33,424 nucleotides of DNA from Rhizaria sp. SCN 62-66 (taxonomy: Eukaryota), in contig MEDY01000328.1 in the NCBI GenBank assembly GCA_001724265.1, forward strand, positions 1 through 33,424, read 5' to 3'. Below, piece after piece: positions 5,552 to 24,017 of this stretch. The notes under the pieces were generated by a model that did not search any database, was not told where the DNA came from, and saw only the letters and a list, made by a program, of their open reading frames with translations. The translations under genes and the position numbers were made by a program. Numbering within the stretch: position 1 is the stretch's first letter; the number at the start of each line of letters is the position of its first letter.

Positions 5552-7139
5552 TCATTGGTCAACTGAAAGCTGACAGACAAGCTCATGCAACTGTTTGACT
5601 TCATCGACCACCCCAGCGCACGCCTCGTCATTGTTGACAAGTCCCGACAGCGCGGCTTCGCCATCAGCTGCAATAAAAGCTGCCAAAAACCGATTTTGAG
5701 GCTCGACAACGCCTTCGTTAGAGACCACAGAGTCTGCCCCCGCCCCAGCTTCTTCTCCGACCATGATCAGACTGCGAACAATCTTAAGCAGCCTGTTCAG
5801 CGTCTCGTCTGGTGGTGCCTCGGACAAAGCTACAGCGGTATTCAGCGCCTGAGCGCAAAACTGCACCGCACCCGAGTTGAGCAACGCTGTCGCAACGGCC
5901 ACACGGTCCCCGTTCTCTCGTGCGGGCGCGCTCAACGCACTGAGCAGCCCCCACGAGAGCTCGGCCGCGCACGTCCACTCCGTGTGCGCGACGTCGCCGT
6001 CGCGCGGTGGCGCGGGCAGGCGTGCAATAACCGCGTGCACCAGGTCCGACTCGAACACGCGGAGCACAAGCGCGGTCTCACGGCCCAACAGGTTCGACAG
6101 CAGCTGCAGTAGCTCGATGAGCGCGTTCACTTCGTCGGGCTCGAGCTCAGCAGCGCACCACTGGAGGCGCGCCAGCACGGGCGCGGTAAAGACGCGCGCA
6201 GGCGTGCCGTCGGTCAGCGCGGCGACATTACCAATGAGGCGCAGCGCGGGCGTGCGCGCCGATGGGAACTGCAGATGCTCTAGGGCCCAGTGAAACGTGC
6301 TGTTGTCACCCTCGTCCAAGAGATGGCTGAAGCGCACGCCGCGCGTTTCCGGGCGGTAAATCCGCGCCAGCGCCCATAGAGCATCAATCAACGCCTCGTA
6401 CAACTCAGGGATTTCGTGGTTGATACGCAAGCCGTGCGAGAGCAGAGGCACAAGTTGCGACACATAGCGGTACGACAGCGGCGGGCTCACATTGACAAAG
6501 TTAGAGAACGTCCAAACAAGGGTCTTGTACACATTGAAGCTGACGTTTCCGTTAACGCCGAGCGCTTGGATCATGTAAGTGCAGACACTGGCGAACGCGC
6601 CGCGCTTGCGCAGGGAGTCGACGGCCTCGCGACCTTCGCCAGCAATGTTGCCCAGGGTCCAGAGGGCGTACTCGATAGTGACGTCGGAGTAGCCGTTGTC
6701 GTCAGAGTTGCTGTTGTTGTCGTCGTCGTTGTTGCCGTCATCGTCACCGCTGTTGTTGCCGTATTTAATCACGCGGCAGAGCTTCTCGGCGACTCCGTTT
6801 TCGAGGAGAGCGGTACAACCTTCACTCGTGACTGCCAGGTTAGCAAATACCCTAAACGTCTCAGACATGCGTCCAGGTGCATCCGTGTCTGCACAGTACT
6901 ATAGGGCGCGCAAAAGCCAATTCAATACGCCGTATTCGAGACATAGCCGAGTGAAGGTTGACGCGTTACCAATTGCGCTCTGCACCGAAGACTCTTGATT
7001 CCAACTAGCGAGGAAGAGAGAGATGTCAGTTCTCCGAGCGCTTTGTGGAACAAAACATAGTCGAAATGAAGGGACATGCTACCGCATAATTAATATCAGG
7101 CAATTCGCCGCGATATGCCCGATCTGTTCTTGACTGGAG
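5552..7139 (-). CDS. Divergent importin-alpha-like armadillo-repeat protein; 5' end unresolved; in-frame TAG at 6899-6901
   Basis: ARM helix-3 motifs RVFANLA, ALWTLGNIAGE, LVWTFSNF, DALWALARI, PALRLIGNVA, LLSNLL. The frame continues upstream of ATG 6868 through one TAG to a splice acceptor at 7005-7006. Probable 78-nt intron 7005-7082 (GTAGCA...ACTGAC...pyrimidine tract...TAG). A further intron lies upstream (ACTAAC branch at 7190-7195). Ends in TGA. Confidence 0.75.
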
Positions 7140-7999
7140 CTATAAAGCAGCACCATCAAAGGAGAAGGGAGAGGAAACAGGACGAGGGGGTTAGTTTTGT
7201 CATGTTGTGCAACACAACCTTGTTACCACAAAACGAAAAGTTTTAAAGAAAGATCAAAATACGAAATATTGGTATACTGTAAAATAAGTACTACTTCATG
7301 TACACTTCAAGCTGGTTTCACGTCATGCGCGACACTCCGCAGCACTGCACGCGAAAACGTCATACCATGGAACAAAGGAGGCGTTTTGTCTTCACAGATC
7401 ACACAAAGTCTATGTTTCATATAATTGTTGACTTTCTAAAATATAACTCGTACTATTCCACACACAAATATTACTCTTATTACCACAAAACAGTCGGTGA
7501 ACGGATACGAGACAACTAATGTTCGCGTATCCAAAATCTTCCAACGGCTGTTTCGTGGTCGCAGCAACTTCGCGGTCGTTGATTGTTTGATTATGCATCG
7601 ATACATGGCAAGGTTATAAGCGATTATGATTAAAAAGCCACTGCAGTTTTATCATTTACGAGTGTCTATATAAAGCAGGTGCATATACGTTCCCAACCAC
7701 TTGGTAGCGTGTGTTCTACTGATGAGTGTATCCAAAGAGGCCAGTCGTAACTAGTGGTTTCCCACATAGCTCGGCCTCAAATCACGTGTCGGTGAGGCCA
7801 ACCTTCATAAAACACCTCCTCATCAGAGCCGCTGTACGGGCTCATGACTGCTGTGTGGCTGCCACTGTCCTTGTGGCCGTGCTTTCGCTTAAGTCAGATA
7901 ACTTGTGATGGCCACACAGCAATGTTCGCAGGCAGTGAACAAGACGAACGATCGCCATTCCGCGTTCAGCTTCGTTAGTATCCGGGCTGCGACTGTCAC

Positions 8000-8820
8000 T
8001 CAAAACCGCGCCTCCTGCTTCACGCCGCCGATAATGAGCGGCGACAGGATGCGAGCGGCAGAGGGGCCGTGCAGGGCTGTGAAGCGCTGCGTGGCGTCCT
8101 GGCCGGCGTAGGGCTGAAGCGCAAGACAAGCACACATGTGGGGTTACAAAAAGAAAAATGAGACAAAAAGTATTAATAACATCACAATGAGCACATTGAG
8201 CAACATAAGCCGTCGAATACAAAGCATATGGCAATCACGAGCTCGACATAGAGGCAAATTGATACAAGATCTCCAGCGTCACACAGAAGGTGATTCATGA
8301 AAATAAGCGAAATTCATTTGTTACCGGCAGCATATAGGCTAGTCCAGAAGATATCTCATGAGAAATAGAGCAATGCCGGTATGCATGGCACATTTGTTGT
8401 TGCTATAGACGTACAAGAATGGCTGCAGCACCGCCAGAGTGGGTCGTCATGAGTGACGTCACATCGACGACCTTGCCGTCGATGATCACCTGCGCGCGAA
8501 AACAAAGCAAGGCACAAAAGACCAGATAGATAAGTTAATATAGTGCACGAAAAATACCAGCAGTGGTGAAATGAAGGAAGGCAGCGTTGCTATCTTACCC
8601 AGCAGTCAGTGGCCGAGTTGTGCTGCTCGATCTCACTCTTGGTGTACATCGCCTGCGCGCGCGTGCCGAGGGGCAGGTAGGGCACGTTAAGCCCGTTCAG
8701 GGTCCCCATAGGCACGGCGGGACGAATAGACGCGGTCTGGCGCAGGACTGCAGCTGCGTTTTGTGCGGGGGCGTGCGGCATAGCGGCGGCGGGAGCGAGG
8801 GAAGCACTTGGCTGGGACAT
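8000..8820 (-). CDS. Cytochrome b5 heme-binding domain protein, apparently soluble; exons 8820-8599, 8489-8415, 8113-8000; 136 aa
   Basis: Spliced translation YTKSEIEQHNSATDCW|VIIDGKVVDVTSLMTTHSGGAAAIL|PYAGQDATQRFTALHG retains both axial His. Introns GTAAGA...CAG and GTACGT...CAG, both phase 0. Ends in TGA. Confidence 0.92.
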
Positions 8821-9209
8821 CAGTGGGATGACTCGCAAGAAAAGCTCTACAAGTTGGGAAAAAAGGTGTTCTGCATGATGACATTTAAATAAAATAAATA
8901 AGCGCAAGTTAAAAACAATCAACAACCATTGATAATTCAAACCAGCGAATAATATGGCTACTTCACGCGTGCATAAGATGGCGCGCTCCCACTCAGTTCA
9001 TCACCAAGCTGGCCAACCACAAATGCAACTTGAAGGGCGCGAAAGAAGGATTTGTGTATTTACACAGCTACAGTAACTCCAACTGCGCCTAAACAACATT
9101 CATAACCGAAACCACATTCCATACAATAATAATTCATATCAATAATGTCCACAAAACACAACAACAACAACATCCTGTCTTATTCCTCATCAAAGACAAT
9201 ACTCTTTGT

Positions 9210-11826
9210 TTAGAGCTCGTCCTTGCCGCCGCCGTTGCGGTCACTGGTCATCTTGACCTCGGGCGCGGCGGACCGCGGCCAGTACTGACCCGCAATGAAG
9301 TCGAGCGTGCCGGCCACACCGTTGAAGTTCAGCGCCTGGGGCGCGACGGGGACGAGGTCGAAGGCGAGCTGCTGCGTCTTGCCGTCAGGGCTGGGCTTGA
9401 GCACCGGCTTGACCACGCGCGCCGCAGGCGTGAGAGTGATCTGGAACTGCTGCATCAGCGCCGCGTTGGACGCCGGCACGACGCCAACCTCTGCGTAGTC
9501 GTGGAACTCGGCGGCGAGTGCGCGCGCCAGCACCGGCACGCCGGGCTTGTCGGTCGCGATGAGCACGCGCGGTGCCAACATGTTCTGCATCAGCCACTGC
9601 TGGAACGCGTTGGCGTCGCCAGAGAGCACCTCGACGGCGATGTCGTCCAGCGCGGTCAGCGCCCACGCTGCCAGCGGCTTGAGCTCCACCGCGCCCGTGT
9701 ACGCACGGGCTGCGGCGGCACGCTGCTGCTTGAGGGCGGCGCGGTGCGCGGCCAGCGCGGCGGCGGCGGCCGAGGCGGCCTCGGCGGGGTCGGCGTCAGG
9801 CCCGACCTCGGGCTTGATGGCCGGGAGCTTGAGCGCCACGGCGGCCGGGAAAGACACGATCTGGCCGCCGCAGACGGCGCCGGTGGGCAGCCAGGCCTTG
9901 CGGAGGGCGGCCGTGGAGGCCTTGGCGTCGGCGTCGTCCTCCGCAGAGCAGCGGACCGTGGCGAAGGCGACCATGGAGTTGACTGACTTGCCAGCGTCCT
10001 CGAACTCCTTGCGCTCGGTCGCCTCGAGGGAGCTCTCGTCATCGCGCGCGAAGCGGACAACGAAGGGGCGTGCGCGGTGGCCGACCAGGGCGTCGGCGTT
10101 CTCGTCGGTCAGAGAGATGATCTCGCCGCGCTTGGTGTTGGGGCGCGACGGACGCTGCCACTTGAGCTCGTTCGCAGCAGCCTCCTGTCATAGATGCGAG
10201 ACGCAAGCAGGAGAGTGAGTTATGGTTATATTGTGGAATTGAAAGCTAAATTAGAGTAACATGTGTGGATCAACGTGCGCGTTTAGGTCTTATTTAAAAC
10301 GTACCTGAACCTTCTGCGCCTCACTGGTCGAGCCAGAAGAGGACGAAGAGGAGCTACTTGAGCTCGAGCTCGAGCTAGCACGAGCGGCCTTGCGGGCGCG
10401 CTTATCGAGCACTGCCTGGCACTGTCCACCCTCGCTGCCTTCGCTGCCGTCAGCGTTGGTGGTGACCAGCGGCAACAGCTTGCCTCCCGGCAGCGGCGCC
10501 GTGGTGGCCTGACCCTTCTGGAGCTCGTTGAGCCAGCGGTTGATGTCGTCGAGACGGAAAGAGCCGACAAGGGGCGCGGAGACGAGCTTGCGCGGCTGCA
10601 GCACGGCCAGCTGGGGATACTCCTGCGGCTCGAGCCCGAGGACATCGCGCACGAACGCGGGCTGTGCGCGGCCCGTAAGCCAGGAGAACTTGACGAAGTC
10701 GTCAGCGCGAAGGTCCTGGACCGACGCCAGCACGTCGAGGTCGTAGGCCGTCTGGCGGCGGGGCTGCTCGGGCGCGACGTAGATGGCGCAGAGCCCGCCC
10801 AGCGAGGCGCAGTGGGCCTGGAAGCACGACTCATCCGTCAGCTCGGGGATCGCCAAGGCCTCGGTGGCCGAGGTCGCCGTGTCGCGCGCGTAGAGCTGGA
10901 GGAAGGCGCGGATGGGGCCGGCCTTCATGAGGCCGGTGTACACGCGGGGCTCCTGTAATAGCGTCGTGATGACAACAATAGACAAGGAAGATATATGAGT
11001 TATAAGAGTACATTTTGGCATAAGATTAACATGAAAAGTTTGAGTTTAACTATAACGTTTAAGACTAGAATTCACTGATATCGTGGATATATATCTTGCT
11101 GTGTTCAGGGACACATACCTGATCGTCGAACTTGCCGCCGGCGGGGGTGGGAGGAATGACGACAATCGCAGGGAAATCCGAGATGTCAAACTTTTTCACC
11201 AGCTTCTTGTCACTCTTGTGCACCTCACCAACAAACAGGCGGTCCTTCATGTTGAGCGAGAGCGCAGCCCACGTCGGCATCGTCTCCTTCTTGGACGTAA
11301 ACAGCAGCGCCTTACCCATGTCAGCAGGCGCGTCCTTGACGAGCTTCTTGAAGTTGCTGTTGGTGACCTTGACCACGCGGCTTAACTTCTCCAGCTGCGC
11401 GTGGACGCCCTCGCGGAGGGACTTGGCCGTAAGCGCGGAGGCGTCGAGCTTCTCGCCCTCCTTGGGGTGGCCGTGGGAGAAGACCTTGACGACGGGCAGG
11501 TCGGCCGCGGTCACGCCCGCCGCGGCCAGCGCGGCGGCCGACTCGGGGTCCGCGGCGTCGACAGAGGCGAAGACGGCTTGACCGTGGAGCTCCTTGGCGA
11601 CGCGGTCGAACGTGTCGCGCAGAGGCTTGCACTTGGGGCACTTGGAGCGGGAGTAGAAGGCGACGTAGGTGAGAGCGTTGTCGCTACCCACAGCGGGGGC
11701 GAAGGAGTCGTCGTCGAGCTCGGTCACGTGGTGGGCCGAGAAGAATGACGACTGCGCCAGCGCGACAGACGCGGACAGGCTCAACAGGGCCGCCGCGAGG
11801 ACGAGAATGAGGCGGGAGAAACGCAT
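9210..11826 (-). CDS. ER-resident protein disulfide isomerase / multi-thioredoxin-fold protein; exons 11826-11119, 10952-10305, 10184-9210; 776 aa
   Basis: Signal peptide MRFSRLILVLAAALLSLSASVALA, VTELDDDSF...FYSRSKCPKCKPL thioredoxin domain with CPKC, further Trx-like domains, C-terminal KDEL then TAA. Introns GTATGT...CAG and GTACGT...CAG keep the frame. Confidence 0.88.
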
Positions 11827-12213
11827 TGGGGGTTGCAGTGGGGAAATCGCACGAACAATACGAAGTTGTGAGTTACAGCAGGAGTTGCTGCGGTTCGCAG
11901 GCCCTTGGTGTGGCTTAGGAGAGAGAAGTTCAGCGGGAAAAACCTCTCTGGTAGAAACGCGCAGTGCGATAAAGCAAGTGCGCGAAAGCTACGCAATCAA
12001 GGGCAGAGGATGGATGCGTGTGCAGGGATGTTGAGGGGAAGAAGCATCGAGAAGTGTCCAGAGTGGGGTGAGTTCAGGCGATTGGGGAGTAAGCGTAGAT
12101 TAAGGCAAATTCAGGTGACATAAAAAGAAAAACAAACAAAAATAAGAATGGTGCAGTCCGAAAAAACAATAGTATCTGCACTAGACCGTCTTGAATGCGG
12201 GAAGTTACTGTCA

Positions 12214-12310
12214 AAGTTGATGCTCAACTTCGCCGTGTCAGCAAGTCCACAACAATTTTTGCGAACCGACCGAACCGAGCGGGCCGACCGACCGGTTGAC
12301 CTGGCCAGCG
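12214..12310. promoter_or_regulatory. Putative element in the divergent PDI/kinase promoter region
   Basis: Palindrome AAGTTGA-TGC-TCAACTT (12214-12230); 12-mer TCAACTTCGCCG (12224-12235) shared with the 17.3 kb divergent promoter; clustered ACCG/GACC units. Confidence 0.35.
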
Positions 12311-12874
12311 GGACTGGGTCGTTTTGTTCACCGACAAACGAGCATATCATGCGCGATGTATGTGCTGCCAGAAGTCACAAATATAGCGTTTTTAGTATTT
12401 ATGGGCTGTATTGGTTCTGTTGGTAACTTTCTACATTTGCTTCCACGTTATACGGCGAGCAGGGACCTGGATAGCGAACGCTATCTTGCTCTGTGTGTGA
12501 GGCCCTCCGAGCTGTTTTCACAAACACACTATAGCTTCCGTCTCTGCACCTCAGCCGCGCGTCTTGGCCCCGTGTAGAACAAAAGTGCACTCATTATTAA
12601 CGTTTCTGTCGTATATTACGCACTACGATACTTCTGCCACCCACGGATCTGTCATTTTGACCTGTGATTTTGCCTCCTATCCGCCAGCTCACTTCCACTC
12701 CCATGCTCCGACACTGTCCGATCGTCATCCTCCGTCCTTCCTTGCATTTACTCCGCGTAGCCCTTCAACCACATCCACGTTGTACTTTCAGACACCAGCC
12801 AAGTGACGTCTAGCCCTCTCTCTGCGTCACCGTCGCCTCCCCCGCTCGCTCAGCGCTAAGGTCGTGTTTGAGCC

Positions 12875-14224
12875 ATGCCCGCCCCCAGCAGCGCCGCCGC
12901 CACGCCCGCGCCCGCGCCGACGGCCGCGGAGCTGACGGACCGCTACTCGACCGTTGCCTCGACGCTCGCGTACTGGGCCGACGCCTACAAGCTCACTCCC
13001 GGGCACGTCAACTTCTACAAACAACCCGCGATCGAGCTGTTTGAGCAGCACGAGCAGGCCCTCTTCGACGACCTCGACCTCCCCGAGTCCTGTTCCTCTT
13101 CACAGCAACAGGGCACGAATGCCGCAAACAGTGACGGTTCGCCCCCGCGAGCCCTCGTCGCAGCGCTGCAGGCCTTTGAGGCCGTGCACTTCGCCAAGCT
13201 CGAGTACATGATCGTCAAGCCTGTCGGCAAGGGCGCGTTCGGCCGCGTCTTTAAGGGCATCCGCCTCTCTGACAACGCCGACGTGGCGCTCAAGGTCATC
13301 GACCTCGAGGAAGCCAAGGAGGACGTGCAGACCATCGCGCAGGAGATCCGCGCCCTGGCCTCCTCCTCCGGCTGCCCGCAGCTCATCTGCTATTACTCGA
13401 GCTTCGTCACTGGCACCTTGCTGTGGATTGCGATGGAGTACCTCGACGGCGGCTCCGTCCTCGACTGCGTCAAAATCAAGCCGCTGCGCGAGCCGGCCGT
13501 GGCGGTGATCTGCCGCGAAGTCCTGCGCGGCCTCGAGTACCTCTCGCTCGAGGGCAAGATCCACCGCGACATCAAGGCCGCCAACGTGCTGCTGTCTTCG
13601 CAGGGCCACGTCAAGCTGGCCGACTTCGGCGCCTCTGGCCAGCTCACCGACACCATGACCAAGTGCAACACATTCGTGGGCTCGCCCTACTGGATGGCGC
13701 CCGAAGTGATGACTCAGTCGCGCTATGACGGCAAGGCCGACATCTGGTCCCTGGGCATCACCGTGCTCGAAATGCTCAACGGCAAGCCGCCGATGCACGA
13801 CGTGCCTCCGCTGCGCGCCATCCGCCTCATCCCCAAGAACCCGTCGCCTCGCGTCCCGCAGGGCATCTACACGGCCGACGCGACCGACTTCGTCAACGCG
13901 TGCCTCGTCAAGGACCCCGCGCAGCGGCCGACGCTTGCGGAGTTGCTGCGCTTTCCGTTCGTCGCCAACGCCAAGCCCATCGAGGAGCTCCCCGCGCTGC
14001 TCGCCCGCAGCAGCAGCAGTGGCTCGGGATCCTCTGGGTCCAAGGCCAGGGCTGCCGCTAAGGCCGCCGCTGCTGCCGCTGCGCCCGCCGTTGCTGCTGC
14101 TGCTGCGCCCGCCGTTGCTGCTGCTGCTGCTGCTTCTGAGGCCAGCGCCAGCGCCAGTGGCGATGCGGCAGCGGCGGCGGCGGCGGCCGGCAAGAAGGGG
14201 GCTGAGCTGGCTCCCGAGGCCTAA
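12875..14224 (+). CDS. STE20-family (GCK, MST3/STK24-like) Ser/Thr protein kinase, 449 aa, single coding exon
   Basis: GKGAFG, VALKVIDLE, IHRDIKAANVLL, VKLADFG, TFVGSPYWMAPEV, DIWSLGIT. Ends in TAA. Confidence 0.95.
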   Translation: MPAPSSAAATPAPAPTAAELTDRYSTVASTLAYWADAYKLTPGHVNFYKQPAIELFEQHEQALFDDLDLPESCSSSQQQGTNAANSDGSPPRALVAALQAFEAVHFAKLEYMIVKPVGKGAFGRVFKGIRLSDNADVALKVIDLEEAKEDVQTIAQEIRALASSSGCPQLICYYSSFVTGTLLWIAMEYLDGGSVLDCVKIKPLREPAVAVICREVLRGLEYLSLEGKIHRDIKAANVLLSSQGHVKLADFGASGQLTDTMTKCNTFVGSPYWMAPEVMTQSRYDGKADIWSLGITVLEMLNGKPPMHDVPPLRAIRLIPKNPSPRVPQGIYTADATDFVNACLVKDPAQRPTLAELLRFPFVANAKPIEELPALLARSSSSGSGSSGSKARAAAKAAAAAAAPAVAAAAAPAVAAAAAASEASASASGDAAAAAAAAGKKGAELAPEA

Positions 14225-16357
14225 GGCAGTTCACGGCTGTTGCAGTCGCGGTCTGCGAGTCCTGGTTAGCTGGCTGACCAGTGGTCCAGTAATGTGTAAG
14301 TATGGACGTGCGCTTAATGCGAAGGTGTTTTGTTGAGTGCCTGTATTTGTTGCGGTATGCTATGTGCAAGTCGTGTTGATGATGTGTTTTCTGACTTGTG
14401 TACTCCGTAGTATGGGTTCTTGCTGCTGTCTTTACTCACGCGTGAACTTGGACTATGGGAGTACGCACTTCACGTTGACACTGACGGTTTCATCAACATT
14501 TACATGCACACGCCCAATTCTAAGTTGTTTCGCGTTCGTCCACAGTCACTTGTTGACTGCTCACGATGCTATGCAGCTCTAGGAATGCTCACGGCTCCTC
14601 GATAGCAATCGATCAATCTTATATTGCTTTTCTGCTCATGCCAAATGTTAATAGGAACTACTTTAAGTAGTCTTGAAATAATAATATCGACACTTGTTAT
14701 TGTTTTGTTTTCTCACATGTATTTCAGTGTCTTTCGTAACCTTCGTGTCTTCGAAACCAGTGTATCTTTTATATATTTGTCATTTATTTCATCTTTGCTT
14801 TTTCTTGTCTTGTCTATCTCCGTCTTGCAACTTTATTTGCAACGTTGCCTCTTTTTCGTCGTTTGTTTGGTGTGCTTTATTTTGCAGACATGCTACTTTT
14901 ATCTGCTTCAGCTCCTTTACCATGTCCATCGCAGTCTCTCTCTTCTCTCTCTGAACAACTCTGTCACTGTCCTTGTCTCGACATCTCACAGCGTCACTGC
15001 TACTGTCACCGTTTTTCTGTCTGCCGCTGTTGCCGCCATGTCTACAGTCACACTATCTCTCTATCTTTCCTCTTGTTCACGTTGGTTTCTGTTCGTTTTG
15101 CTCTGCATTTTGTTTCATTTTGTTGATGCTGTGCTGTTAAGTTTGCTGTCACTCAATTATTAGCGTTTTCGTAACCATACCCCCCTTTATAGTCTTTAAC
15201 AAACAATCAATAACCAGTAATACAATTATATCATTCAAAATAAGACTTACTCCGTTCACAGAAACGAAACTTGAATCAGGCCACACTTGTGGCGACCGGC
15301 CATCTCGCGCTGCCGGCAGTGCACCAGCAGGTACGGGATGAACAGGGCCCGGGGTGCGATCAACAAAACCAACGGCATAATCACGGCGATGCAATAGAAA
15401 AGCGGTGCCGCCAAGAATAACTCAGTTACGCGCCACATGTGCGAACGCCGAGCGAAGTGGACCTCAGGGGTTAGGTGCTGAAGAGGGACTAACTCTCAAG
15501 TATTCCTTCGTCTTTCTTCAACGAGGTGGTAAACCTTTGTAAAAGCACCACAATGTGCTCACAAAACATCTTCTGCACTTTTATTAGCAACGCTATCATA
15601 TCTTTGCTTTGTTTGCAAGATCGATCACACTCTAACTGTTAGGTCGCTTTCGGTTACAGTCGTCGAGGTCAACAACTTCAAAGCGTGAACTTACGTAGCT
15701 GCGCACGCTGCTGGTGAATATGGACATCATTGCATCGGTGGCATCTACAGGCCAGTTGCAGAACATCAGATGGGTCTGCAGTGCAACCGGGTGAGCAAGA
15801 GCAACTCTTCGCCGCTGTTCAGTGGGCTGAGGGATAATGGTGAGGATAGTAAAACAATCAGTGTTGCCTAAAATAGATAGAATGTGTATGGCAATACGTA
15901 AATTACACAATGTCGTTTTGTTTTCATGTTAGTATTTTGTAACAAAGTTATGATTTTGTTTTTCTCAATAGAATCGTTCGTTTTTGTTCGCTTGATTGAT
16001 TGTTGTCGCAAGGAGGAATAACTTCAGCCCATCTTATCGTGTTGTTGTTGATAAGTTGACTCTACAGTTCCGTTGTGTGCGGCGGGTTGGATCAAACAAA
16101 CTTAATTCGGAGCAAATACACACTTACACGCACATTTGCACTTGCGATGCTGCTCTCAGCGATGCTGCTCTCATTGCGTTTGCCAGGACCGTACAACCCA
16201 AATCCTTGACACGCTAAGAGAGTGCGCACTGGGTGCGAGTGCTCGTGTTCACGCGTTCATGCATCTGTCGTTGATGATTTCCCTCGCTATCGCGTACACT
16301 CCTTCAGCTGGACGCCTTTGTACGCCTATCGCGTGTCTGCTTGTGGCATTTACGCGT

Positions 16358-16927
16358 TTACGCGTCGGCAGCCTTGACGGCGGCGACCGCGGGGGCGGCA
16401 CCGCCGGCGACACGGAGCGCGTTGGCCTCCTCGAGCTCGGCAATGCGCTTCTCGGCGCCCTGGATGCGCGCGATGAGGACCGAGACGTCGCCGTGCGCGG
16501 CCGACACGCGGGCCTTAACGTCGGCCGTAGAGGACCAGACGTCCTGGCGCAGACGGATGTAGCCGAACACGGCCGTGACGGCGACGCCGGCAGCAAAGGC
16601 CGACATGCGGGAGCGCCAAGAGCCGGGGGCCTTGTCTGCAACGGCGGCCTTCTCGGCGGCCGAAGGCGCGGCGGGGGTGGGGGCCGCGGTGGGCTTGGAG
16701 AAGAAGCCGGGGGCGGAGGAGCCGGTGACGGTGACGTTCTTCTCGGCCAGGCGTGCGGGGGACGCGCGCAGCAAACGGACTACGCGGGGGATGGGGATAG
16801 TGGGCACAGCACATAATAATGACATGGTGTGAGCACGGGAATGCAAGAGGAGAGATGAGAGAGAGAGAGGCGTAGTGCTTTGAGTGAGGCGTGAAATGAG
16901 AAAATAAGAGAAAGGGAACGTACACAT
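16358..16927 (-). CDS. Small putative mitochondrial single-pass membrane/coiled-coil protein; exons 16927-16924 and 16779-16358; 141 aa
   Basis: ATG T|GTACGT...CGTAG|TC CGT gives MFRLLRASPARLAEK (presequence-like). TM segment AFAAGVAVTAVFGYI followed by coiled-coil-like IQGAEKRIAELE. Strong C/G third-position codon bias in exon 2. Ends in TAA. Confidence 0.7.
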   Translation of the reverse strand: MCTFPFSYFLISRLTQSTTPLSLSSLLLHSRAHTMSLLCAVPTIPIPRVVRLLRASPARLAEKNVTVTGSSAPGFFSKPTAAPTPAAPSAAEKAAVADKAPGSWRSRMSAFAAGVAVTAVFGYIRLRQDVWSSTADVKARVSAAHGDVSVLIARIQGAEKRIAELEEANALRVAGGAAPAVAAVKAADA

Positions 16928-17274
16928 GTGCAGCTTGGTCTGAAATGGGCAGGGGCATTTGGGGATGGAGCAAGGAGTAGATGGGGCGTAAAGTAAAAGA
17001 TGTGATGTGAGCGTGGAATGCGGTGTGGGGATAGGGTAGAATCGGGAAAGGCAGAAGTCTCAAACAGGCGTGCAATGTTGAGAGAGCGGTGTGTCGTCGC
17101 GCGCGGGCAAAGTCCAGCACTTGCTGCCGATCGTGGACAACAAAATAATAAGATCCCCAAATAATTCCGTCATTATTCAATTCAACAATTTAACTGCACT
17201 ACTAATTGGCGATGTTAAGCTCGAGAACGACACTCTGCAAACACTCGAACTCACCTCGACCGTGAGCGTCTCTT

Positions 17275-17380
17275 GCTGGTTGACCGACCGAGTCTTGGCC
17301 AACTGACTGACCAACAGCAAGCTCGGTCAGTCGGCCGGAAAAGGTAAGCCGGCGAAGTTGACTGAGACGAGCCAACGGTT
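17275..17380. promoter_or_regulatory. Putative element in the divergent mitochondrial-protein/MYCBPAP-RCC1 promoter region
   Basis: CGGCGAAGTTGA (17350-17361) is the exact reverse complement of 12224-12235; GACC/GACT tetramer runs at 17280-17312. Confidence 0.35.
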
Positions 17381-17672
17381 TCTCGTCGAGAAGTGAATAT
17401 TGAGTGCCAACGGGGTCAGATTTGCACTAGGGAGGCTGTGCTTAAATTATTATATTAAATATTGTTAAATAACATATATATTGCGACTTGATGTGTATCA
17501 ACGGATCATAGACTAACTTTATAGATCGTTTCTTGCCACCCTTCAGACAAACAAAGGCACTTGCCCCATCGCTTCCCGCGCTTCCCCTTGCTCCTCGCCG
17601 TGTACCCCGCTCGGTCTGAGCTTTCCACCGCGCCTTTGCCAGCCCCCGGCGGCTCTTTTACGCTCCGCCTCG

Positions 17673-20600
17673 ATGTCTGACACACGTGGCCTGGTCCTCC
17701 CGGCCATCGCGAAGCCCGGTGCAGACCCCGTCTCGGCGCTCGCTTCCCCGCCCTCCTCGGCCGCCCACGGCTCCAACAGCTCCAACGGCGCCTCCACGGC
17801 TGCGGGCGGCGTGCGCGTGTTCAAGCCTGTGCTCGTCCGCCGCAAGGTCAGCTCTGACAGCGCCCCTGAGCTGCAGCAGCTCGGTTTCTCCGTACCCGCC
17901 CCAGCGGTTCTGCCAGAGCTGCCGTCGCGCCCCACTTCGGCCGCCATCGCCCCACTGTCCCCGGCCGCCGCCGCGCACGGCCACGCAGCCGCTGCAAACG
18001 CCAGCGCGGCGGCGGCCCCGACCGTCTCGGCCGCCTTCACTGCCGCCGCCGCCGTAACGCCCGCTGGCCGCCACTCTGCCTTCGCTGCCCAGCACCACAC
18101 TCGAATCCCCTCCGCCTCGCACCACGCCGCCGCCCCGGCCTCTGCCGCCGCCTCCGGCGCGCAGGCGGGCCCGGTGGCGGGCGGTAAGACGCTGCTCGTC
18201 GCCCGCCGCGTTCCTCTGCCCTCCGCCGGCAACAACACCACCGCCAATACAAGCGCCCGCGGTAACTCTGCAGCTGCTGCTGCTGCTGCTGCTCGTAACG
18301 GCAGTGCCAGTGCAGGTTTGCCGTCCGCGGTGCCCGGCGCCGCGTCGACTCTTGCGCTGGCCTCCGCCGCGCTGGCCGACGACCCCGACGCCCCGGCTTC
18401 AGCGCTCGCGCTGACCTTAGAGCCCGAGTCTCTGGCCACAGACGCGGCCAGCTCCCACACTGCTGCTGCTGATGTGGGTGGTGCTTCAGTGGGCCCGCGG
18501 CTCGGTGCCGACGGCCGCGTCGTCTCCGCGGACGTCGTCGGCGACCCCGCGGCCGTGGATGCCCTCCGCTCCGCCCTCGCAGCGCTGGCCGCCGAGCGGG
18601 CCGCTCTGTCGCATCTGCTCCAGCCCAGCTCGAGCGGCAACAGCAACAGCGGCGGCAGTGGCAGTTCGCGGAATAGCCACGCACGGTGGGCCGACGGCAA
18701 TGGCAACAACAGCAACGATGACGGCCACGGTTATGACGGCTACGACGACAACAACAACGACGACGACTACGATGACGACGACTATGACGATAGCAACTCT
18801 GCCGCCCGCTTCCAGGCCGCGCAGGACGCTTACTAGGCCGCCGCCATGGGCTCTGCGGCCGCCGCCGCCACGGGCAGTGCGAGGGGATCCAAGGCCGCCC
18901 GCGTGCGCGCCCGCTGGGCCCAGCACCAGGCCGCATGGGGCGCCGTCGACCTCGCGTCCCGCACGTCCCGCATGGTCACCACCGGCAACGCCGCCGCGGC
19001 GCAGCGCTCCGCCGGCGGCAAGTCGCGGTCCACTGCGCGGGTGACCGGCGCTAGCGCTGGCGCTGGTGCTAGAGCGCTGCCGAGTGCGACCGCGGCGGCC
19101 CCGTCCCTGCTGCAGTCGTCGTCCCGTGCCCGCGCCGCCGCCGAAGTGTCCCGCCTTCGCGATCGCGCCGCTTCGCTCCGCGCGGCCGACGGGCCGACGA
19201 CGTGGGAGACAACGCTGCGCGGGCACCAAGACGCACTGGTCCCGGTCGGCGGGGCCCGCTCGGGGCTCTACTGCAAGATCCCCGTCCGCTGCCCCGCGCG
19301 CGTCGAGGTCGTCCGCAGCGCGCTGCCGGGCGCCAACGGCGACAACAACGCGTTATCCTTAAATGACAACGGCAACGACGATGATGAGGACGGCGACGAT
19401 GGAGAGAATGCCGATGGCGCTGTGGTTGCGCTGTCCAAGGACGCCGCGGGCGGAGACGCCGCCGCCCGCGCCGCCGCGGCCGCCTGGGCCGGTGTAAACT
19501 TGAACCCGCGCGCAGACTGGATGGCTGTGGCCGCTGTGCCACTGCGGCTCTACGCCGCGGCCCACGCCGACCTCACCTCCGCGACGCCGCACCTGGCCGC
19601 CGCGGCGAACAAGAAGGCCCGCATCGCTGCGAAGCAGGCCGAGGCCGCCGCGCAACGGGAAGCCGAGGCCTCCTCATCCTCCTCCTCCGCCGCCGCTGCC
19701 GCCGCTGCTGACGCTAACGTCGACGCTGATGTTGACGCGAGTGGAAACAGCAAGGGCTCCAGCAGCGCCGCCCAGTCCGGCCCCGCGGCCGTCGCCGTCA
19801 CTCCCTCCGTGGTCCTGGGCGCTGAGTCCGCCGCTGCCGCCGCAGGCGCCGTGGGCGCGGGGGATGCGCGCGCCGCGCTGCAGGGACGCGTGCCCGCAGG
19901 CACTATGGTGCGTGAGGCGGGCGTGCTTGCGCTGCGCAACACCGGCGACACAGCGCTGCGCTACACGTGGGACCTCACTCTCGACCACGGCACGAGCAGC
20001 ACTCACAGCGCGATCGCAGGCGCCGAGGGCGATGTCAGCGCGGTCGGCGCGACCCCGTTCCCCCTGCCGCCTGCCCGCGAGCCCGCGTACGCGTACAGCA
20101 ACAGCACTGCAGCAACCGCGAGCTCTGGCTCTGGCTCCTCCGGCTCCGTTGGCGCTGACATGGTCTACTGCGAAGGCTACGACGCCGCCGCGCTCCGCAG
20201 CGCTTCCGAGCTCGCTGCCCCGGTCCCCGCGCTCACCCTGTCCCTGCCCTGCCCTTCCGGCATTGCACTGCCAGGACACCTCGCCACCGCGCGCCTCCTT
20301 CTCGCGCGCGGTGGCTTACCTTCCGGCGCCCGCGGCCTAGCTTCCGCGCTGGTTCCCCCGACCGGCTCAGTGCACCACGCACGCGCCGTCCTCACTACTG
20401 TGCCCCCGCTTCCTCAGACAAGCTCCGACTCGAGCTCCAGCCCAGTGGCCGTGTCGGTGACCGTGCTGACGCCCTCGGCGGACGCCTGGGCTCCCGCGCG
20501 GTCCGCGCTGTCGGCCGCACTCGCTGCCCGCGCGCCCGTGTTGGCCGCCGCGGACACGGTGGCTCAGCTGGTGTGCGCGATGCCGCCCTCTGGGGTTGCT

Positions 20601-23600
20601 GAAGAGGACGAGCGGTACGAGTTCAGTCTCCGCAATAACAACTACAAGCACACTGGATACAGTCAGAGCAATAGTAGTGTAGAGCAGGAGCAGGAGCAGT
20701 TGTTCAAGAGTAAGTATATGTGGCAGCCCGCCCCTTGGTCCTCGCTGCCTTTCCCAGCCACCATCAGCTCCGGCTCTAGCTCTGATGGCAAAAGTGCTAC
20801 TGTCAAGAACCAGAGCCAAAACGATGAAGGCAACGACGCCGCTGCTGAGTCTGACGAATTTGACGACGACGATGATGATTACGAGGGTGTTGACGAGTCC
20901 AAGCGCCTCTACTTCCACGCCTCTCTGCAGCCTCAGTGGCACGCGCTGGCGGCTGACGTCATCGCCGCCCACCCGGCCTCGCTCCGACCGCAGCTGCGGT
21001 GGGACCTCACGGCCGCCTGGCTGCGCGGCGCCATCGCCTCCCTGCCGGCCCGCTCCCGGCCGCTGCTGCCGCGCCTGCGCGCGCGCTGGATCCGCCTCGT
21101 GGTTCAGGCGCAGCAGCCGCCCGCGCCGCACCCAGCGAGCTGCGCCGCACTTAAGGCCTTGCTCGCCGCCGCCACGGCACACACGCCGCGGCTGGCCCAC
21201 GCCGCCGCGCTGGCGCTGCCGCTGCCCGCCGAGCCCGCTGCCGCGGCCGCCGCGCGCGCTGCCTTAGCCGCCGCCGCTGCGGCCGCGGCCAAGCCCGCCG
21301 CGATGCGCGGGCGCCCCGGCGCCAACGCAGTCTCCGCCGCCGACGCCGCGGCGCTCGAGGCTTATGAGGCCCAGTGCGCCGTGGTTCGCGCGCGCCGCTC
21401 CGCGCTGCTGACGACGCTGCTCGCACAACACCTCGGCGCCGCGATTGCCGCGTGGGACGCCGTCGCCGCCCCCGCGCGCGCGCTGGCGGCCGAGGACCCG
21501 GCCGGCAAGGTTGAGCTGGAGGAGCTGGTCGCCGCGCAGCGCAGCGCCGCTGCCGCCGAGGCCGCCACGGCGGGCCGCCTGGTTTACTTCGGTGACGGCA
21601 CCTCGGCGCCGGACCCGGGCCCGCGGGCCGAGACGCGCGCGCAGCAGCAGGCGCGTGAGCTGGCTGAGCGCCGCCGCCCTCGCGCGTTCCAGACGCCCGC
21701 GCAGAAGGCCGAGGCGGCGCGCGCGGCGGCGCTGCTGGCCGCAGACCCGCTGCACGGCGCCGCCGCGACGGCCGTGGCGTTGGGCCCCGCAGGCGCGCTC
21801 GTAGCCACCGAGGGCCGCGCCGTGGCCGCCTGGCGCGCGCGTGCATTCGACGTCGCGCTGGCCGCCGCGGGCGGGGACAAGCGCGCGCGCGGCGCGCAGC
21901 AACGCGGCGGCGCCGCCATCGCCGCTGCCGCAGCCGCTGCAGCCGCCGCCGCCGCCGCTGCCGCTGCTGCGTCCAGCGCGACCGCCAACGCGCCTCCGAA
22001 TATGGGCGCCTCGAGCGACACTGAGGGCGGCCCCGGCATGGCGTCCGCGAACAGCTCGTTCAACGCCAGCAGCGCGGCACTGCCAAACTCTGGCTCCAGC
22101 GCCGCCAGCCCCGTCGCCACCAGCGGCGGCAACGGCGGCGGTGGCAGCGGCGGCGCTGCTGCGGCCGGGTCGGCGACCCCTACGGGCCCGACCTCCGCAG
22201 CGGCGGCCGCGGCCGCCGTGGCCGCGGCCGTGGCCGCGGCCGCGACGTCCGGCGCGGACGTGCCGGGCCACCCCGGTCTGCGGGACCGGCGTACCGTGCC
22301 CGAGCTGGCGGGGCTGTCGGTGCGCCAGCTCGTCTCCACGGGCGACGCTGCGGGCCTCGTGGTGACGACCGACGGCGCGCTGTACAGCTGGGGGCCTACT
22401 ACGGCCGCCACGCAGGCCGCCGCCGCGGCGTCGCCGGTGCTGACCCGGGCGCTTCAGCAGCTCTCCGGCACCAACATCGCCAGCTCCAGCTCCAGCTTCG
22501 GCTCGAACGCGAGTGTCAGTACAAGCAATGTTCCTAGCGGCTCTGTCGTCGCGCCCACCGAGCCGCTGCTGCGGCCGGTGGACGCGGCGCTCTCAGCCGC
22601 GCGCGTCAAGGCCGTCGCCGCGACGCTGGATCCCGCGCCTGGCCAAACGGCCTTCTTCGCCGTCACTGAAGCGGGCGCGCTCTACGCCTGGGGCGACGCG
22701 GCATCCCCGAAGCTCTCGCTGCTGGCGCTGCCTCAGCGCGGCGCCAACGTGGCCACGGCGCCCACCCCCGTGCTCGTGCCCGGCTTCGCCCTGCGCGGTA
22801 TCAAGATCGCCGCCGTGGCCGCGGGCGCGCAGCACGTGCTGGCCCTCACCACCACGGGCGCCGTCTACGCGTGGGGCAGCAACGACGCCGGGCAGCTCGG
22901 CCTGGGCGACAAGCGGCCCCGCATGCTACCGACGCTTGTCGAGGCGCTCTCGCGCCCCGGGTCGAGCAACGACCTGGCCAGCGACAAGCTTGACGACGAC
23001 GGCAAGGTTGTGCTGGCTGACTCGACCGCCGAGGGCGCCGTCGCAGGCCCGCGCGGCCGCCGCACAGCCCATAACAGCACCAGCGGCTCTGGCGGCTCTA
23101 GCAGCATTGGGAGTGGCAGCGGCAACGGCAACGGCGGGTCGGTCTCCCCGTCGCCGTCTCCCATAGGCCCTACACTGGGCGTCCCCGGATCTGCTGAGGG
23201 CGGCGGGCCGCTGCCGCTGACGCGCGTGCGCAGCACGAGCCGCTCCAACACCGGCGGGAGCAACATTACCAACAGCAGCAACGCCGGTGACGCCGATGCT
23301 GCGGCCTCGTTCGACCCCATTGTCGCCATCGACTGCGGCCTCAGCTTCTCCCTCGCCGTCACGGCCTCCGGCGCCGTGTACTGCTGGGGCGAGGGCCGCG
23401 ACGGCGCGCTCGGCCACGGCGACACCAAGGACTGCGACCGACCCCGCCGCCTCGACGCCTTCCCCCCTGCCGCCAGCCTCGGCTTCAACAATACGGCGGC
23501 AGCGTTCGGCAGCGTGCATCTGGCCGAGGACAGCATCCCCTCCAGCCGCTCCGCCACGGCCACGGGCCAGCGCCGCCCTCCTTCGCAGCATCGCCGCACC

Positions 23601-24017
23601 GTCGGTGGCCCGCACGGCGGGGTTTTGTCCGCGACCGCGGCTACGGCTGCAGTGAGCTCTAGGGACCCGACTGGCCGCGACCGGCGCATCGTCTCGGCGC
23701 GCTGCGGGCACCGGCACGTGATCGCATTGGCGCAGTCGGGCGACGTGTGGGCCTGGGGCGCCAACGGGGCCGGGCAGTTGGGCCTGGGCACTGCCATTGC
23801 GGCTACAGCTGCCAACGGCGTCGTCAGTGCAGAGGACGCGGCGGCCGCCGTGACTGCGACGCCCACGCTTGTGCCCGCGCTGGCGCAGAGCGCCGTGTCT
23901 CCCGCGCGGGTCGTCGCAGTGGCCGCGGGCGGTAACGCCAGCGCGGTGACAATGCAGCCGCCCGTGGAGGAGGACGAGGAGAACGCGAGCGGTGACAACA
24001 GCGAGAATTCTCTCTGA
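17673..24017 (+). CDS. MYCBP-associated-protein-like N-terminal region fused to C-terminal RCC1 repeats; 2114 aa if the in-frame TAG at 18834-18836 is decoded
   Basis: ORFs 17673-18836 and 18846-24017 are in the same frame, separated only by TAG GCC GCC GCC. MYCBPAP-like motifs occur on both sides (GPRLGADGRVVSADVVGD; WETTLRG...VPVGGARSGLYCKI; LRNTGDTALRYTW...GIALPG). RCC1 motifs: AGAQHVLALTTTGAVYAWGSNDAGQLGLGD, CGLSFSLAVTASGAVYCWGEGRDGALGHGD, CGHRHVIALAQSGDVWAWGANGAGQLGLG. Ends in TGA. Confidence 0.75.

What the first reader, a model, noticed from the sequence alone, without database searches (positions are those of the whole stretch)
6899..18836. Candidate variant nuclear genetic code: UAG read as sense (probably Gln) while UAA and UGA remain stops
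Seen: two unrelated genes on opposite strands each carry one in-frame TAG with domain-like sequence continuing on both sides (18834-18836 +; 6899-6901 -). I found no exon interrupted by TAA or TGA in the supported gene models, and none of the nine gene ends is TAG (4 TAA, 5 TGA). Known: UAA and UAG are nearly always reassigned together; uncoupling is reported only in a few protists (the fornicate Iotanema, an uncultured rhizarian, some ciliates). Inference: this GC-rich genome may be another case, possibly independent. Gln is favoured because TAG is one transition from the dominant CAG and one site aligns to a polar ARM position. Caveats: only two sites, TAG would be a rare codon, and I cannot identify the organism, so novelty is unproven.
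Basis: partly seen in the sequence, partly recalled or inferred. Interest (0 to 1): 0.92.

Follow-up and report, generated by a model that had tools for sequence, protein, structure and literature searches.

The report
In-frame TAG codons, possible code variant
Two unrelated genes of an uncultured, GC-rich wastewater protist each carry one TAG codon inside conserved coding sequence, which most likely means this organism translates UAG instead of stopping at it, but three sites are too few to prove a changed genetic code.

Summary
TAG 6899-6901(-) lies inside a conserved ARM-repeat helix. Of 11 homologues that cover the column, 7 have Glu and the others have K, D, Q or S. TAG 18834-18836(+) lies in a frame that a 1787-aa homologue crosses without a break.

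Both TAGs appear unchanged in contigs of an independent DNA run, and neither lies in an intron. My gene models hold 7,765 codons with no in-frame TAA or TGA. The nine gene ends are 4 TAA, 5 TGA and 0 TAG.

A relative's orthologue (L001) has its first TAG in an acidic tail. There is no GC drop after it and the frame stays open to the contig end. This is probably a third in-frame TAG.

Leading reading (about 0.55): UAG is translated as a very rare sense codon. Glu fits at least as well as Gln.

Main rival (about 0.25): standard code, with two recent premature stops and restart at the in-frame ATG that follows each TAG, 4 and 10 codons later.

Not obtained: whole genome, tRNA-CUA, eRF1, or RNA or peptide evidence across the sites. 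The organism is unidentified.

The parts
18834..18836 (+). In-frame TAG (site A) in the N-terminal, low-complexity part of a large RCC1-repeat protein gene
   Evidence: Homologue P0008 aligns across it without a break, with Met at this column. Unchanged in run X4, record 14, 18342-21119.
17673..24017 (+). G7: read-through ORF of 2114 codons, from the first ATG at 17673 to TGA at 24015-24017. RCC1 repeats lie in the C-terminal third.
   Evidence: PF25390, PF00415, PF13540; GC3 highest in this frame in most windows on both sides.
18846..18848 (+). In-frame ATG, the 4th codon after TAG A (context GCCGCCATGG). It is the first in-frame ATG after 17673.
   Evidence: Relevant to the restart / gene-fission rival.
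6899..6901 (-). In-frame TAG (site B) inside helix 2 of the first ARM repeat of an importin-alpha-like ARM protein
   Evidence: column E in 7 of 11; residue 35 lies inside helix 26-40. Unchanged in run X4, record 9, 6176-7053.
5552..7004 (-). G2 main exon of the ARM gene, ending in TGA at 5552-5554. The database protein P0001 is only the part from ATG 6868-6866.
   Evidence: ARM fold, TM 0.71-0.73 to importin alpha clusters.
7005..7082 (-). Inferred 78-nt intron (GTAGCA...CGCTAG) of the ARM gene. An alternative in-frame acceptor lies at AG 6979-6978.
   Evidence: Sequence. Inference only, no RNA support. Run X2 has a 10-nt insertion behind 6984.
7083..7156 (-). Inferred exon 1 of the ARM gene, from ATG 7156-7154
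   Evidence: Inference only.
6866..6868 (-). In-frame ATG 10 codons after TAG B, and the start of database protein P0001
4625..4627 (+). G1 stop, TAA. The TAG at 4186-4188 lies in the AT-rich intron 4111-4281.
9210..9212 (-). G4 (PDI-like protein with C-terminal KDEL) stop, TAA. The TAG at 11065-11067 lies in its first intron.
14222..14224 (+). G5 (STE20/MST-type kinase) stop, TAA
8000..8002 (-). G3 (cytochrome b5-like, 3 exons) stop, TGA
24015..24017 (+). G7 stop, TGA
25866..25868 (+). G8 stop, TGA
26168..26170 (-). G9 (PolyA_pol head-domain protein, 1445 codons) stop, TGA
16358..16360 (-). G6 (small ORF 16358..17059, no family) stop, TAA. The model has no homology support.

Best explanation
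In this uncultured GC-rich protist lineage, UAG is not an efficient terminator. It is translated as an amino acid and occurs as a very rare sense codon, about 1 in 2,000-4,000 codons. UAA and UGA end the genes.

The expected mechanism is inferred from other UAG-only lineages, not shown here. It would be a tRNA with anticodon CUA, derived from a tRNA-Glu or tRNA-Gln, probably together with an eRF1 that reads UAG poorly.

The encoded residue is polar, either Glu or Gln. The rarity suggests an early stage of codon capture or inefficient decoding.

Shown: the TAGs are real DNA, in frame, inside conserved coding sequence, and not intronic.
Inferred: that ribosomes read them as sense, and that this holds genome-wide.
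For: 1. Both TAGs interrupt coding sequence that homologues cross without a break. Site B lies inside a predicted ARM helix (residue 35 in helix 26-40, model pLDDT 81.8).
2. They are not assembly errors. Contigs of run X4, from another study, carry them with 0 other letters. No variant was reported at either place in the 4 runs laid, though cover of the two places is shown only for X4. The ORF that starts just after TAG B was seen on 7 contigs.
3. They are not in introns. The introns here are AT-rich, start GTA(C/T/G)G-type, and show a clear GC drop. The only GT..AG pair that could remove TAG B would delete residues conserved in the homologues. No in-frame GT..AG intron fits around TAG A, where GC is 0.58 in the 125 nt upstream and 0.82 downstream.
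4. Downstream of the TAGs, 1,726 and 448 codons stay open with coding signatures (GC3 0.83 and 0.67). The RCC1 part of G7 cannot be reached by scanning, because the sequence before ATG 18846 holds several out-of-frame ATGs.
5. There are 0 in-frame TAA or TGA in 7,765 codons, and 0 of 9 gene ends use TAG.
6. In the relative's contig L001, the orthologue's first TAG lies in an acidic tail. GC is 0.63 before it and 0.62 after it, and the frame is open for 41 more codons to the contig end. At the 7 window gene ends tested, GC falls to 0.34-0.53 and the next in-frame stop comes within 5-25 codons.
7. A count of 2 is not absurd for a sense codon here: AGA occurs 1 time, ATA 4 and CGA 8.
Against: - There are only 2 sites, plus 1 probable site in a relative.
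- Each TAG is followed by an in-frame ATG, at codon +4 and codon +10. With Met at 1.1% of codons, the joint chance is about 0.45%. This is what a restart would need. I noticed it after the fact.
- 0 of 9 TAG ends has a chance of roughly 3-13% if TAG made up 20-33% of stops. Those shares are recalled, not computed here.
- TAG is 66% of the mutational routes to a stop, so finding only TAG fits random nonsense mutations too.
- The open frame after the L001 TAG arises in 22% of shuffles.
- Run X2 carries a 10-nt insertion, not a multiple of three, 28 codons upstream of TAG B. This fits relaxed constraint there unless the position is intronic.
- The two TAG columns do not agree on one residue: Glu-rich at one, Met at the other.
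- No tRNA gene or Rfam match is in the window.
- No RNA contig was shown to bridge either TAG (tables cut).
- Known UAG-only lineages use UAG far more often: 384 in 71 genes in the rhizarian exLh (PMC5304391, passage read).
Confidence: 0.55

Rival explanations
1. Standard code. Both TAGs are genuine premature stops that arose recently and are fixed in the population. The ARM protein is now made from the Met 10 codons downstream and lacks its N-terminus. The RCC1 gene is either split (restart or a new transcript start at ATG 18846) or a young pseudogene.
For: - An in-frame ATG follows each TAG closely, at +10 and +4 codons. The second has the context GCCGCCATGG and is the first in-frame ATG after 17673. 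The joint chance is about 0.45%.
- TAG is the expected product of random nonsense mutation here, at 66% of routes.
- Run X2 has a 10-nt insertion upstream of TAG B.
- P0001 alone folds as an ARM solenoid (the Atlas model has pTM 0.81).
- Another homologue's database protein, P0134, starts at the same position as P0001.
Against: - It needs two independent, very recent events in about 10 genes. The sequence just before each TAG is still well conserved: about 13 of 19 residues match P0004 before TAG B, by my count, against 43-45% over the whole protein.
- A start at Met45 would fall inside helix 43-56 of the first ARM repeat.
- Several upstream ATGs precede both candidate restart codons, and there is no AT-rich, promoter-like stretch near 18,800.
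- The 1,726-codon ORF is fully intact.
- No gene end uses TAG, 0 of 9.
- It does not explain the coding-like sequence after the TAG in L001.
Confidence: 0.25
2. UAG is still formally a stop but is leaky in this organism. Near-cognate tRNAs (Gln, Tyr or Lys type) or weak eRF1 recognition read it through without a dedicated tRNA-CUA. In-frame TAGs are therefore tolerated at low frequency and TAG is avoided as a terminator. This would be an ambiguous intermediate state.
For: It explains the same facts as the best explanation: TAGs in conserved frames, 0 of 9 TAG gene ends, and extreme rarity of 2 in 7,765 codons. Rarity fits inefficient decoding better than a settled reassignment.
Against: - Making a 2,114-residue protein whose functional domain lies after the TAG needs efficient read-through.
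- The bases after the TAGs are G and T. From recall, these are not the contexts known to favour read-through (C after the stop, or CAR-YYA). This was not tested here.
- Sequence alone cannot separate this reading from the best explanation.
Confidence: 0.12
3. The TAGs never reach the ribosome. They would be removed or changed at the RNA level (unusual splicing, intronisation of the 81-nt GTAACG..GTGCAG stretch around TAG B, or editing), or they would be assembly or haplotype artefacts.
For: An in-frame 81-nt GT..AG stretch around TAG B exists. No RNA contig was shown to bridge either TAG.
Against: - Independent DNA contigs (run X4) carry both TAGs with 0 other letters. No alternative letter was reported at either place in the 4 runs, though cover there is shown only for X4.
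- The 81-nt stretch encodes residues conserved in the homologues, including invariant W29 L30 L31 L34 Y36 C37. Its GC is like that of the neighbouring exon.
- Nothing intron-like surrounds TAG A.
- None of the 15 joints shown, of 350 found, lies at either site.
Confidence: 0.05

Closest known systems
UAG-only reassignment in Iotanema spirale (UAG=Gln) and the rhizarian exLh (UAG=Leu), Panek et al. 2017, PMC5304391 (passages read)
   Same: Only UAG occurs in frame within conserved genes. [quoted passage not shown] The predicted mechanism there is a tRNA with anticodon CUA plus possible eRF1 changes.
   Different: In those taxa UAG is common: 384 in-frame UAGs in 71 genes in exLh. Here there are 2 in 7,765 codons. 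There the amino acid was fixed by hundreds of sites. Here it is open (Glu or Gln; Leu fits the polar column poorly). This lineage is GC-rich and unidentified. No tRNA or eRF1 data were available.
Ciliates with uncoupled UAA/UAG: Oligohymenophorea sp. PL0344 (PMC10553269) and phyllopharyngeans (PMC11687900). Only the search listings and starts of abstracts were seen.
   Same: UAG has a meaning different from UAA.
   Different: Those are ciliates. This window has spliceosomal introns of 78-171 nt, exons of 60-74% GC and genes on both strands, which from recall is unlike typical ciliate macronuclear DNA. That UAG=Glu in PL0344 is also recalled, not read here.
Blastocrithidia nonstop (UAR=Glu, UGA=Trp, UAA also a stop), PMC12153298 (start of abstract seen)
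   Same: A stop codon of the UAR pair is read as Glu. Glu is a candidate meaning here.
   Different: In Blastocrithidia all three stops are reassigned and in-frame stops are abundant. Here only TAG occurs in frame, and TAA and TGA are clean terminators. The mixed gene strands and the introns argue against a trypanosomatid.
Near-cognate read-through of UAG in standard-code organisms (10.1101/2023.06.19.543857 and PMC13192750; listings and starts of abstracts only)
   Same: UAG is decoded by a tRNA in competition with eRF1.
   Different: From recall, that process usually extends C-termini at low efficiency. Here the TAGs lie near the N-termini of long proteins, so read-through would have to be efficient.

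Membership tests
Nuclear code with UAG as sense and UAA/UGA as stops (Iotanema / exLh type) | In-frame UAG inside conserved coding sequence of unrelated genes | tested here: met
   2 sites in 2 genes of the window, plus 1 probable site in relative L001.
Nuclear code with UAG as sense and UAA/UGA as stops (Iotanema / exLh type) | UAG not used as a terminator | tested here: inconclusive
   0 of 9 gene ends are TAG: 4 TAA and 5 TGA. The sample is too small. The chance is roughly 3-13% if TAG had a 20-33% share (shares recalled).
Nuclear code with UAG as sense and UAA/UGA as stops (Iotanema / exLh type) | UAA and UGA remain stops, with none in frame | tested here: met
   0 in-frame TAA or TGA in 7,765 codons of my gene models. 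At the 7 ends tested, GC falls to 0.34-0.53 after the stop.
Nuclear code with UAG as sense and UAA/UGA as stops (Iotanema / exLh type) | One consistent amino acid at UAG columns | tested here: inconclusive
   Site B column: E in 7 of 11, with K, D, Q and S in one each. Site A column: Met in the single homologue. The L001 TAG lies in a D/E/S-rich tail. Polar; Glu or Gln.
Nuclear code with UAG as sense and UAA/UGA as stops (Iotanema / exLh type) | Cognate tRNA with anticodon CUA | not testable with these tools
   0 tRNA genes and 0 Rfam matches in the window. No genome is held.
Nuclear code with UAG as sense and UAA/UGA as stops (Iotanema / exLh type) | eRF1 with altered stop recognition | not testable with these tools
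   eRF1 is not in the window, and other contigs of the organism could not be reached.
Nuclear code with UAG as sense and UAA/UGA as stops (Iotanema / exLh type) | UAG retained in mature mRNA and crossed by peptides | tested here: inconclusive
   RNA runs X6 and X5 were laid, but no listed contig bridges either TAG and the tables were cut. No proteomics.
Pseudogene | Several disabling changes and loss of coding signature | tested here: not met
   There is one TAG per gene and no frameshift. 1,726 and 448 codons stay open downstream, with GC3 0.83 and 0.67. The RCC1 domains score above the Pfam cut-offs. A very young pseudogene is not excluded.
Intron-contained stop | TAG lies between GT..AG borders in an AT-rich stretch that is absent from homologues | tested here: not met
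   Homologues align through both TAG positions. The true introns of the window look different.

The most novel reading that the evidence does not exclude
An unidentified, uncultured lineage of GC-rich protists from bioreactors and wastewater has independently uncoupled UAG from UAA. It reads UAG as Glu or Gln and keeps UAA and UGA as stops. It is caught at an early stage, when the captured codon is still among the rarest in the genome (about 0.03% of codons). The trait would be shared by relatives whose orthologues are only about 46% identical, so it would be old yet still at low usage.
Probability: 0.45. Interest if true: 0.88.

Novelty: new member of a known kind. Interest (0 to 1): 0.68.

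Why it matters
UAG-only reassignments in nuclear genomes are known from very few lineages, and all described ones use the codon often. A lineage in which UAG is translated but still extremely rare would be a natural snapshot of the early phase of stop-codon capture. It would allow direct tests of the codon-capture and ambiguous-intermediate models. Which comes first: the tRNA-CUA, the eRF1 change, or the loss of TAG terminators?

There is also a practical consequence. The database proteins for these genes are cut at the TAGs (P0001 starts after TAG B; P0002 ends at the TAG in L001). Gene calls for this lineage would be systematically truncated.

If the restart rival is right instead, the finding is ordinary: two young N-terminal truncations.

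Tried and rejected
- Whole genome: none is held.
- The look-up of sequencing runs was busy four times and then answered.
- The metagenome scan gave only one true orthologous locus, L001, among 80 kept. The others are importin-alpha-like, at 22-32% identity.
- The genome-contig scan with the kinase alignment found only a bacterial kinase, L081.
- The viral-contig scan with A1 found nothing.
- tRNA and Rfam scans of the window found nothing.
- Organism identity was not obtained. The closest relatives of the kinase and the ARM protein carry no names. Named kinase hits, at 51-56% identity, scatter over animals, amoebozoans, oomycetes and others. The Atlas gave only the fold.
- RNA support was not obtained. 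Runs X6 and X5 were laid, but no listed RNA contig bridges either TAG. The low or zero depth bins are no evidence. The many joints listed have short sides (20-25 letters), lie in low-complexity GC-rich repeats, and were disregarded.
- Intron explanations for both TAGs were considered and rejected; see the rival explanations.
- TAGs at 4186(+), 11067(-) and 7081(-), and those in the cytochrome b5 gene, were examined as possible TAG gene ends or further in-frame TAGs. All lie in introns.
- "Only TAG, never TAA or TGA" was rejected as an argument, because the chance under random nonsense mutation is 0.44.
- Literature searches listed no UAG-only code in a GC-rich non-ciliate lineage or in wastewater eukaryotes. 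These are three word searches of an open-access library, not proof of absence. Supplementary files were not seen.

Full report
**What the window is.** It is a eukaryotic nuclear contig. Exons are GC-rich (60-74%) and spacers and introns are AT-rich. Genes lie on both strands. The spliceosomal introns are 78-171 nt long and start GTACGC, GTATGT, GTACGT, GTAGCA or GTACGG.

I recognised ten genes:
- G1: a long membrane protein, 2 exons, ends TAA 4625.
- G2: an ARM-repeat protein.
- G3: cytochrome b5-like, ends TGA 8000.
- G4: PDI-like with KDEL, 3 exons, ends TAA 9210.
- G5: an STE20/MST kinase, ends TAA 14222.
- G6: a small ORF without a family, ends TAA 16358.
- G7: a large RCC1-repeat protein, ends TGA 24015.
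- G8: ends TGA 25866.
- G9: a PolyA_pol head-domain protein, ends TGA 26168.
- G10: runs off the window.

No genome is held for the window. Sequencing runs that hold the DNA are labelled bioreactor, wastewater or activated-sludge metagenomes. Long, error-free pieces were laid for X4 and X2.

**Site B, TAG 6901-6899 on the minus strand.** The frame 5552..7222(-) is broken only by this TAG and by a TAG at 7081. The second is the start of a 78-nt intron, G|GTAGCA...CGCTAG.

The database protein of the window, P0001 (438 aa, seen on 7 contigs), starts at the Met 10 codons after the TAG. Three homologues (41-46% identical in the search; 44-46% in the alignment) align through the TAG. The invariant columns on either side are W29 L30 L31 L34 and Y36 C37 D39 D41 P43. 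All three have Glu at the TAG column.

A profile search of 1.84 billion representatives found 18 proteins at E up to 1e-30. In an alignment of 13 homologues, 11 cover the column. It is E in 7 (P0002, P0003, P0004, P0131, P0132, P0135, P0137), K in P0130, D in P0136, Q in P0140 and S in P0141.

In an AlphaFold2 model of the read-through protein (mean pLDDT 81.8), the TAG residue 35 lies inside helix 26-40. Helices 14-23, 26-40 and 43-56 form the first ARM repeat. A protein starting at Met45 would begin inside the third helix.

An 81-nt GTAACG..GTGCAG stretch could remove the TAG in frame, but it would delete the conserved residues. I rejected it.

**Site A, TAG 18834-18836 on the plus strand.** ORFs 17517..18836 and 18837..24017 are in one frame. 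GC3 is the highest codon position in that frame in most 150-nt windows on both sides, with a dip at about 18192-18417.

The only homologue found, P0008 (1787 aa, cut at its 5' end because it begins with V), aligns from window residue 238 to 1404 in one piece. 582 of 1242 residues are identical, E 3e-177. It crosses the TAG, where it has Met. Conserved stretches lie directly before the TAG (A.F.AAQ.AY) and about 30 residues after it (HQAAW).

GC is 0.58 in the 125 nt before the TAG and 0.82 after it. Nothing there resembles the AT-rich introns.

**Are the TAGs real DNA?** Yes. Contigs of run X4, a DNA run from a different study than the probable source, cover 6176-7053 and 18342-21119 with 0 other letters and 0 gaps. 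No alternative letter was reported at either place in the 4 runs laid, though cover of the two places is shown only for X4. RNA runs X6 and X5 were laid, but no listed RNA contig bridges either TAG, so there is no transcript evidence either way.

**Census.** My gene models hold 7,765 codons, with TAG 2, TAA 0 and TGA 0 in frame. The rarest ordinary codons are AGA 1, ATA 4, CGA 8 and TGT 9. Gene ends are 4 TAA, 5 TGA and 0 TAG.

At the 7 ends I tested, GC falls to 0.34-0.53 in the 125 nt after the stop. The next in-frame stop follows within 5-25 codons. Other TAGs that look in-frame in long ORFs (4186+, 11067-, and those in the cytochrome b5 gene) are intronic.

**A relative.** L001, a 2,396-bp metagenome contig, carries the orthologue P0002 as one exon. 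It has GAG at the site B column. Its ORF is cut by a TAG inside an acidic tail (..DDDDSDESD-TAG-NSNAASGGVDSQTEQAAEV..). GC is 0.63 before and 0.62 after the TAG. The frame stays open for the remaining 41 codons of the contig, while the 5' spacer of the same contig has GC 0.41.

Shuffles give an open frame 22% of the time, so this is suggestive and not proof. It does not look like any of the 7 true gene ends of the window. If it is a third in-frame TAG, the trait is shared by organisms whose orthologues are only about 46% identical.

**Weighing.**

For translation of UAG:
- Two unrelated genes out of about ten are affected.
- Conservation reaches right up to the TAGs.
- Long ORFs downstream are intact.
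- No plausible way exists to reach the RCC1 part by scanning, because several out-of-frame ATGs precede 18846.
- No gene ends at TAG.
- The L001 case points the same way.

Against, or neutral:
- 66% of single-base routes to a stop give TAG, so "only TAG" has a chance of 0.44 under random nonsense mutation.
- 0 of 9 is weak.
- Both TAGs are followed by an in-frame ATG at +10 and +4 codons. The joint chance is about 0.45% at a Met frequency of 1.1%. This is what restart would need, though I noticed it after the fact.
- Run X2 has a 10-nt insertion behind 6984, 28 codons upstream of TAG B. It breaks my exon-2 model unless the acceptor lies further down. AG 6979-6978 would keep the frame, but that is inference only.
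- Another homologue's database protein, P0134, starts where P0001 starts.

I put about 0.55 on UAG being a rare sense codon. About 0.25 goes to two young premature stops under the standard code, and about 0.05 to removal at the RNA level or an artefact.

**Which residue.** The conserved column is Glu-dominated and polar, GAG is the codon in L001, and the L001 TAG sits among D, E and S. The other column is Met in a variable region. Glu and Gln both fit and Leu does not.

**Comparison with known cases.** UAG-only codes are described for Iotanema (Gln) and the rhizarian exLh (Leu). In exLh there were 384 in-frame UAGs in 71 genes, and a tRNA with anticodon CUA was inferred as the only possible decoder (PMC5304391, passages read). 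Ciliate cases and Blastocrithidia were seen only as listings and starts of abstracts.

The present case would be a further lineage of the same kind. It is distinguished by the extreme rarity of the codon and the GC-rich genome. Three literature searches listed nothing matching it. Supplements were not available.

**Verdict.** A genome-wide census, a tRNA-CUA search and reads or peptides across the two sites would settle it.

Noticed in passing
window 6984-7015: Run X2 (a closely related strain, otherwise near-identical) carries a 10-nt insertion behind 6984 and A>C at 7015, inside or next to the inferred exon 2 of the ARM gene. The length is not a multiple of three, so either the intron acceptor lies further downstream (AG 6979-6978 keeps the frame) or the region is not under frame constraint.
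   Followed up: partly
window 6700-6770 (-): The ARM protein has a 22-residue insertion, rich in N, D, S and G, that all 13 aligned homologues lack. Similar N/D-rich runs occur in G1 and G7, alongside long poly-Ala tracts.
   Followed up: no
proteins P0003, P0131, P0132, P0135: Four ARM homologues from different 50%-identity clusters all have database proteins that start at the same position, M[FL]DWLL, where full-length relatives have GV[FLI]DWLL. This suggests an ORF caller started at the Val codon after a shared upstream break, either a conserved intron or an in-frame stop. The DNA could not be fetched.
   Followed up: no
window 13960-14030 (+): Another assembly of the same species (P0009) differs from the window's kinase only by an in-frame 8-residue deletion in the Ala-rich C-terminal tail. 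This is repeat-length polymorphism.
   Followed up: yes
window 9210-11825 (-): A three-exon gene for a PDI-like ER protein: a thioredoxin domain, a PDIA6-like C-terminal domain and a C-terminal KDEL. Its two introns are AT-rich, roughly 125 and 165 nt long.
   Followed up: partly
window 7079-7082 and about 8600 (-): Two introns begin G|GTAGCA or GTACGGTAGCA, which places a TAG in the upstream exon's frame right at the donor site. Such TAGs could be mistaken for in-frame TAGs.
   Followed up: yes
whole window (runs X1-X4; X4 and X2 laid): The contig recurs almost unchanged in DNA runs labelled bioreactor or wastewater metagenome, from at least three studies between 2015 and 2025. The organism is a persistent member of such systems.
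   Followed up: partly
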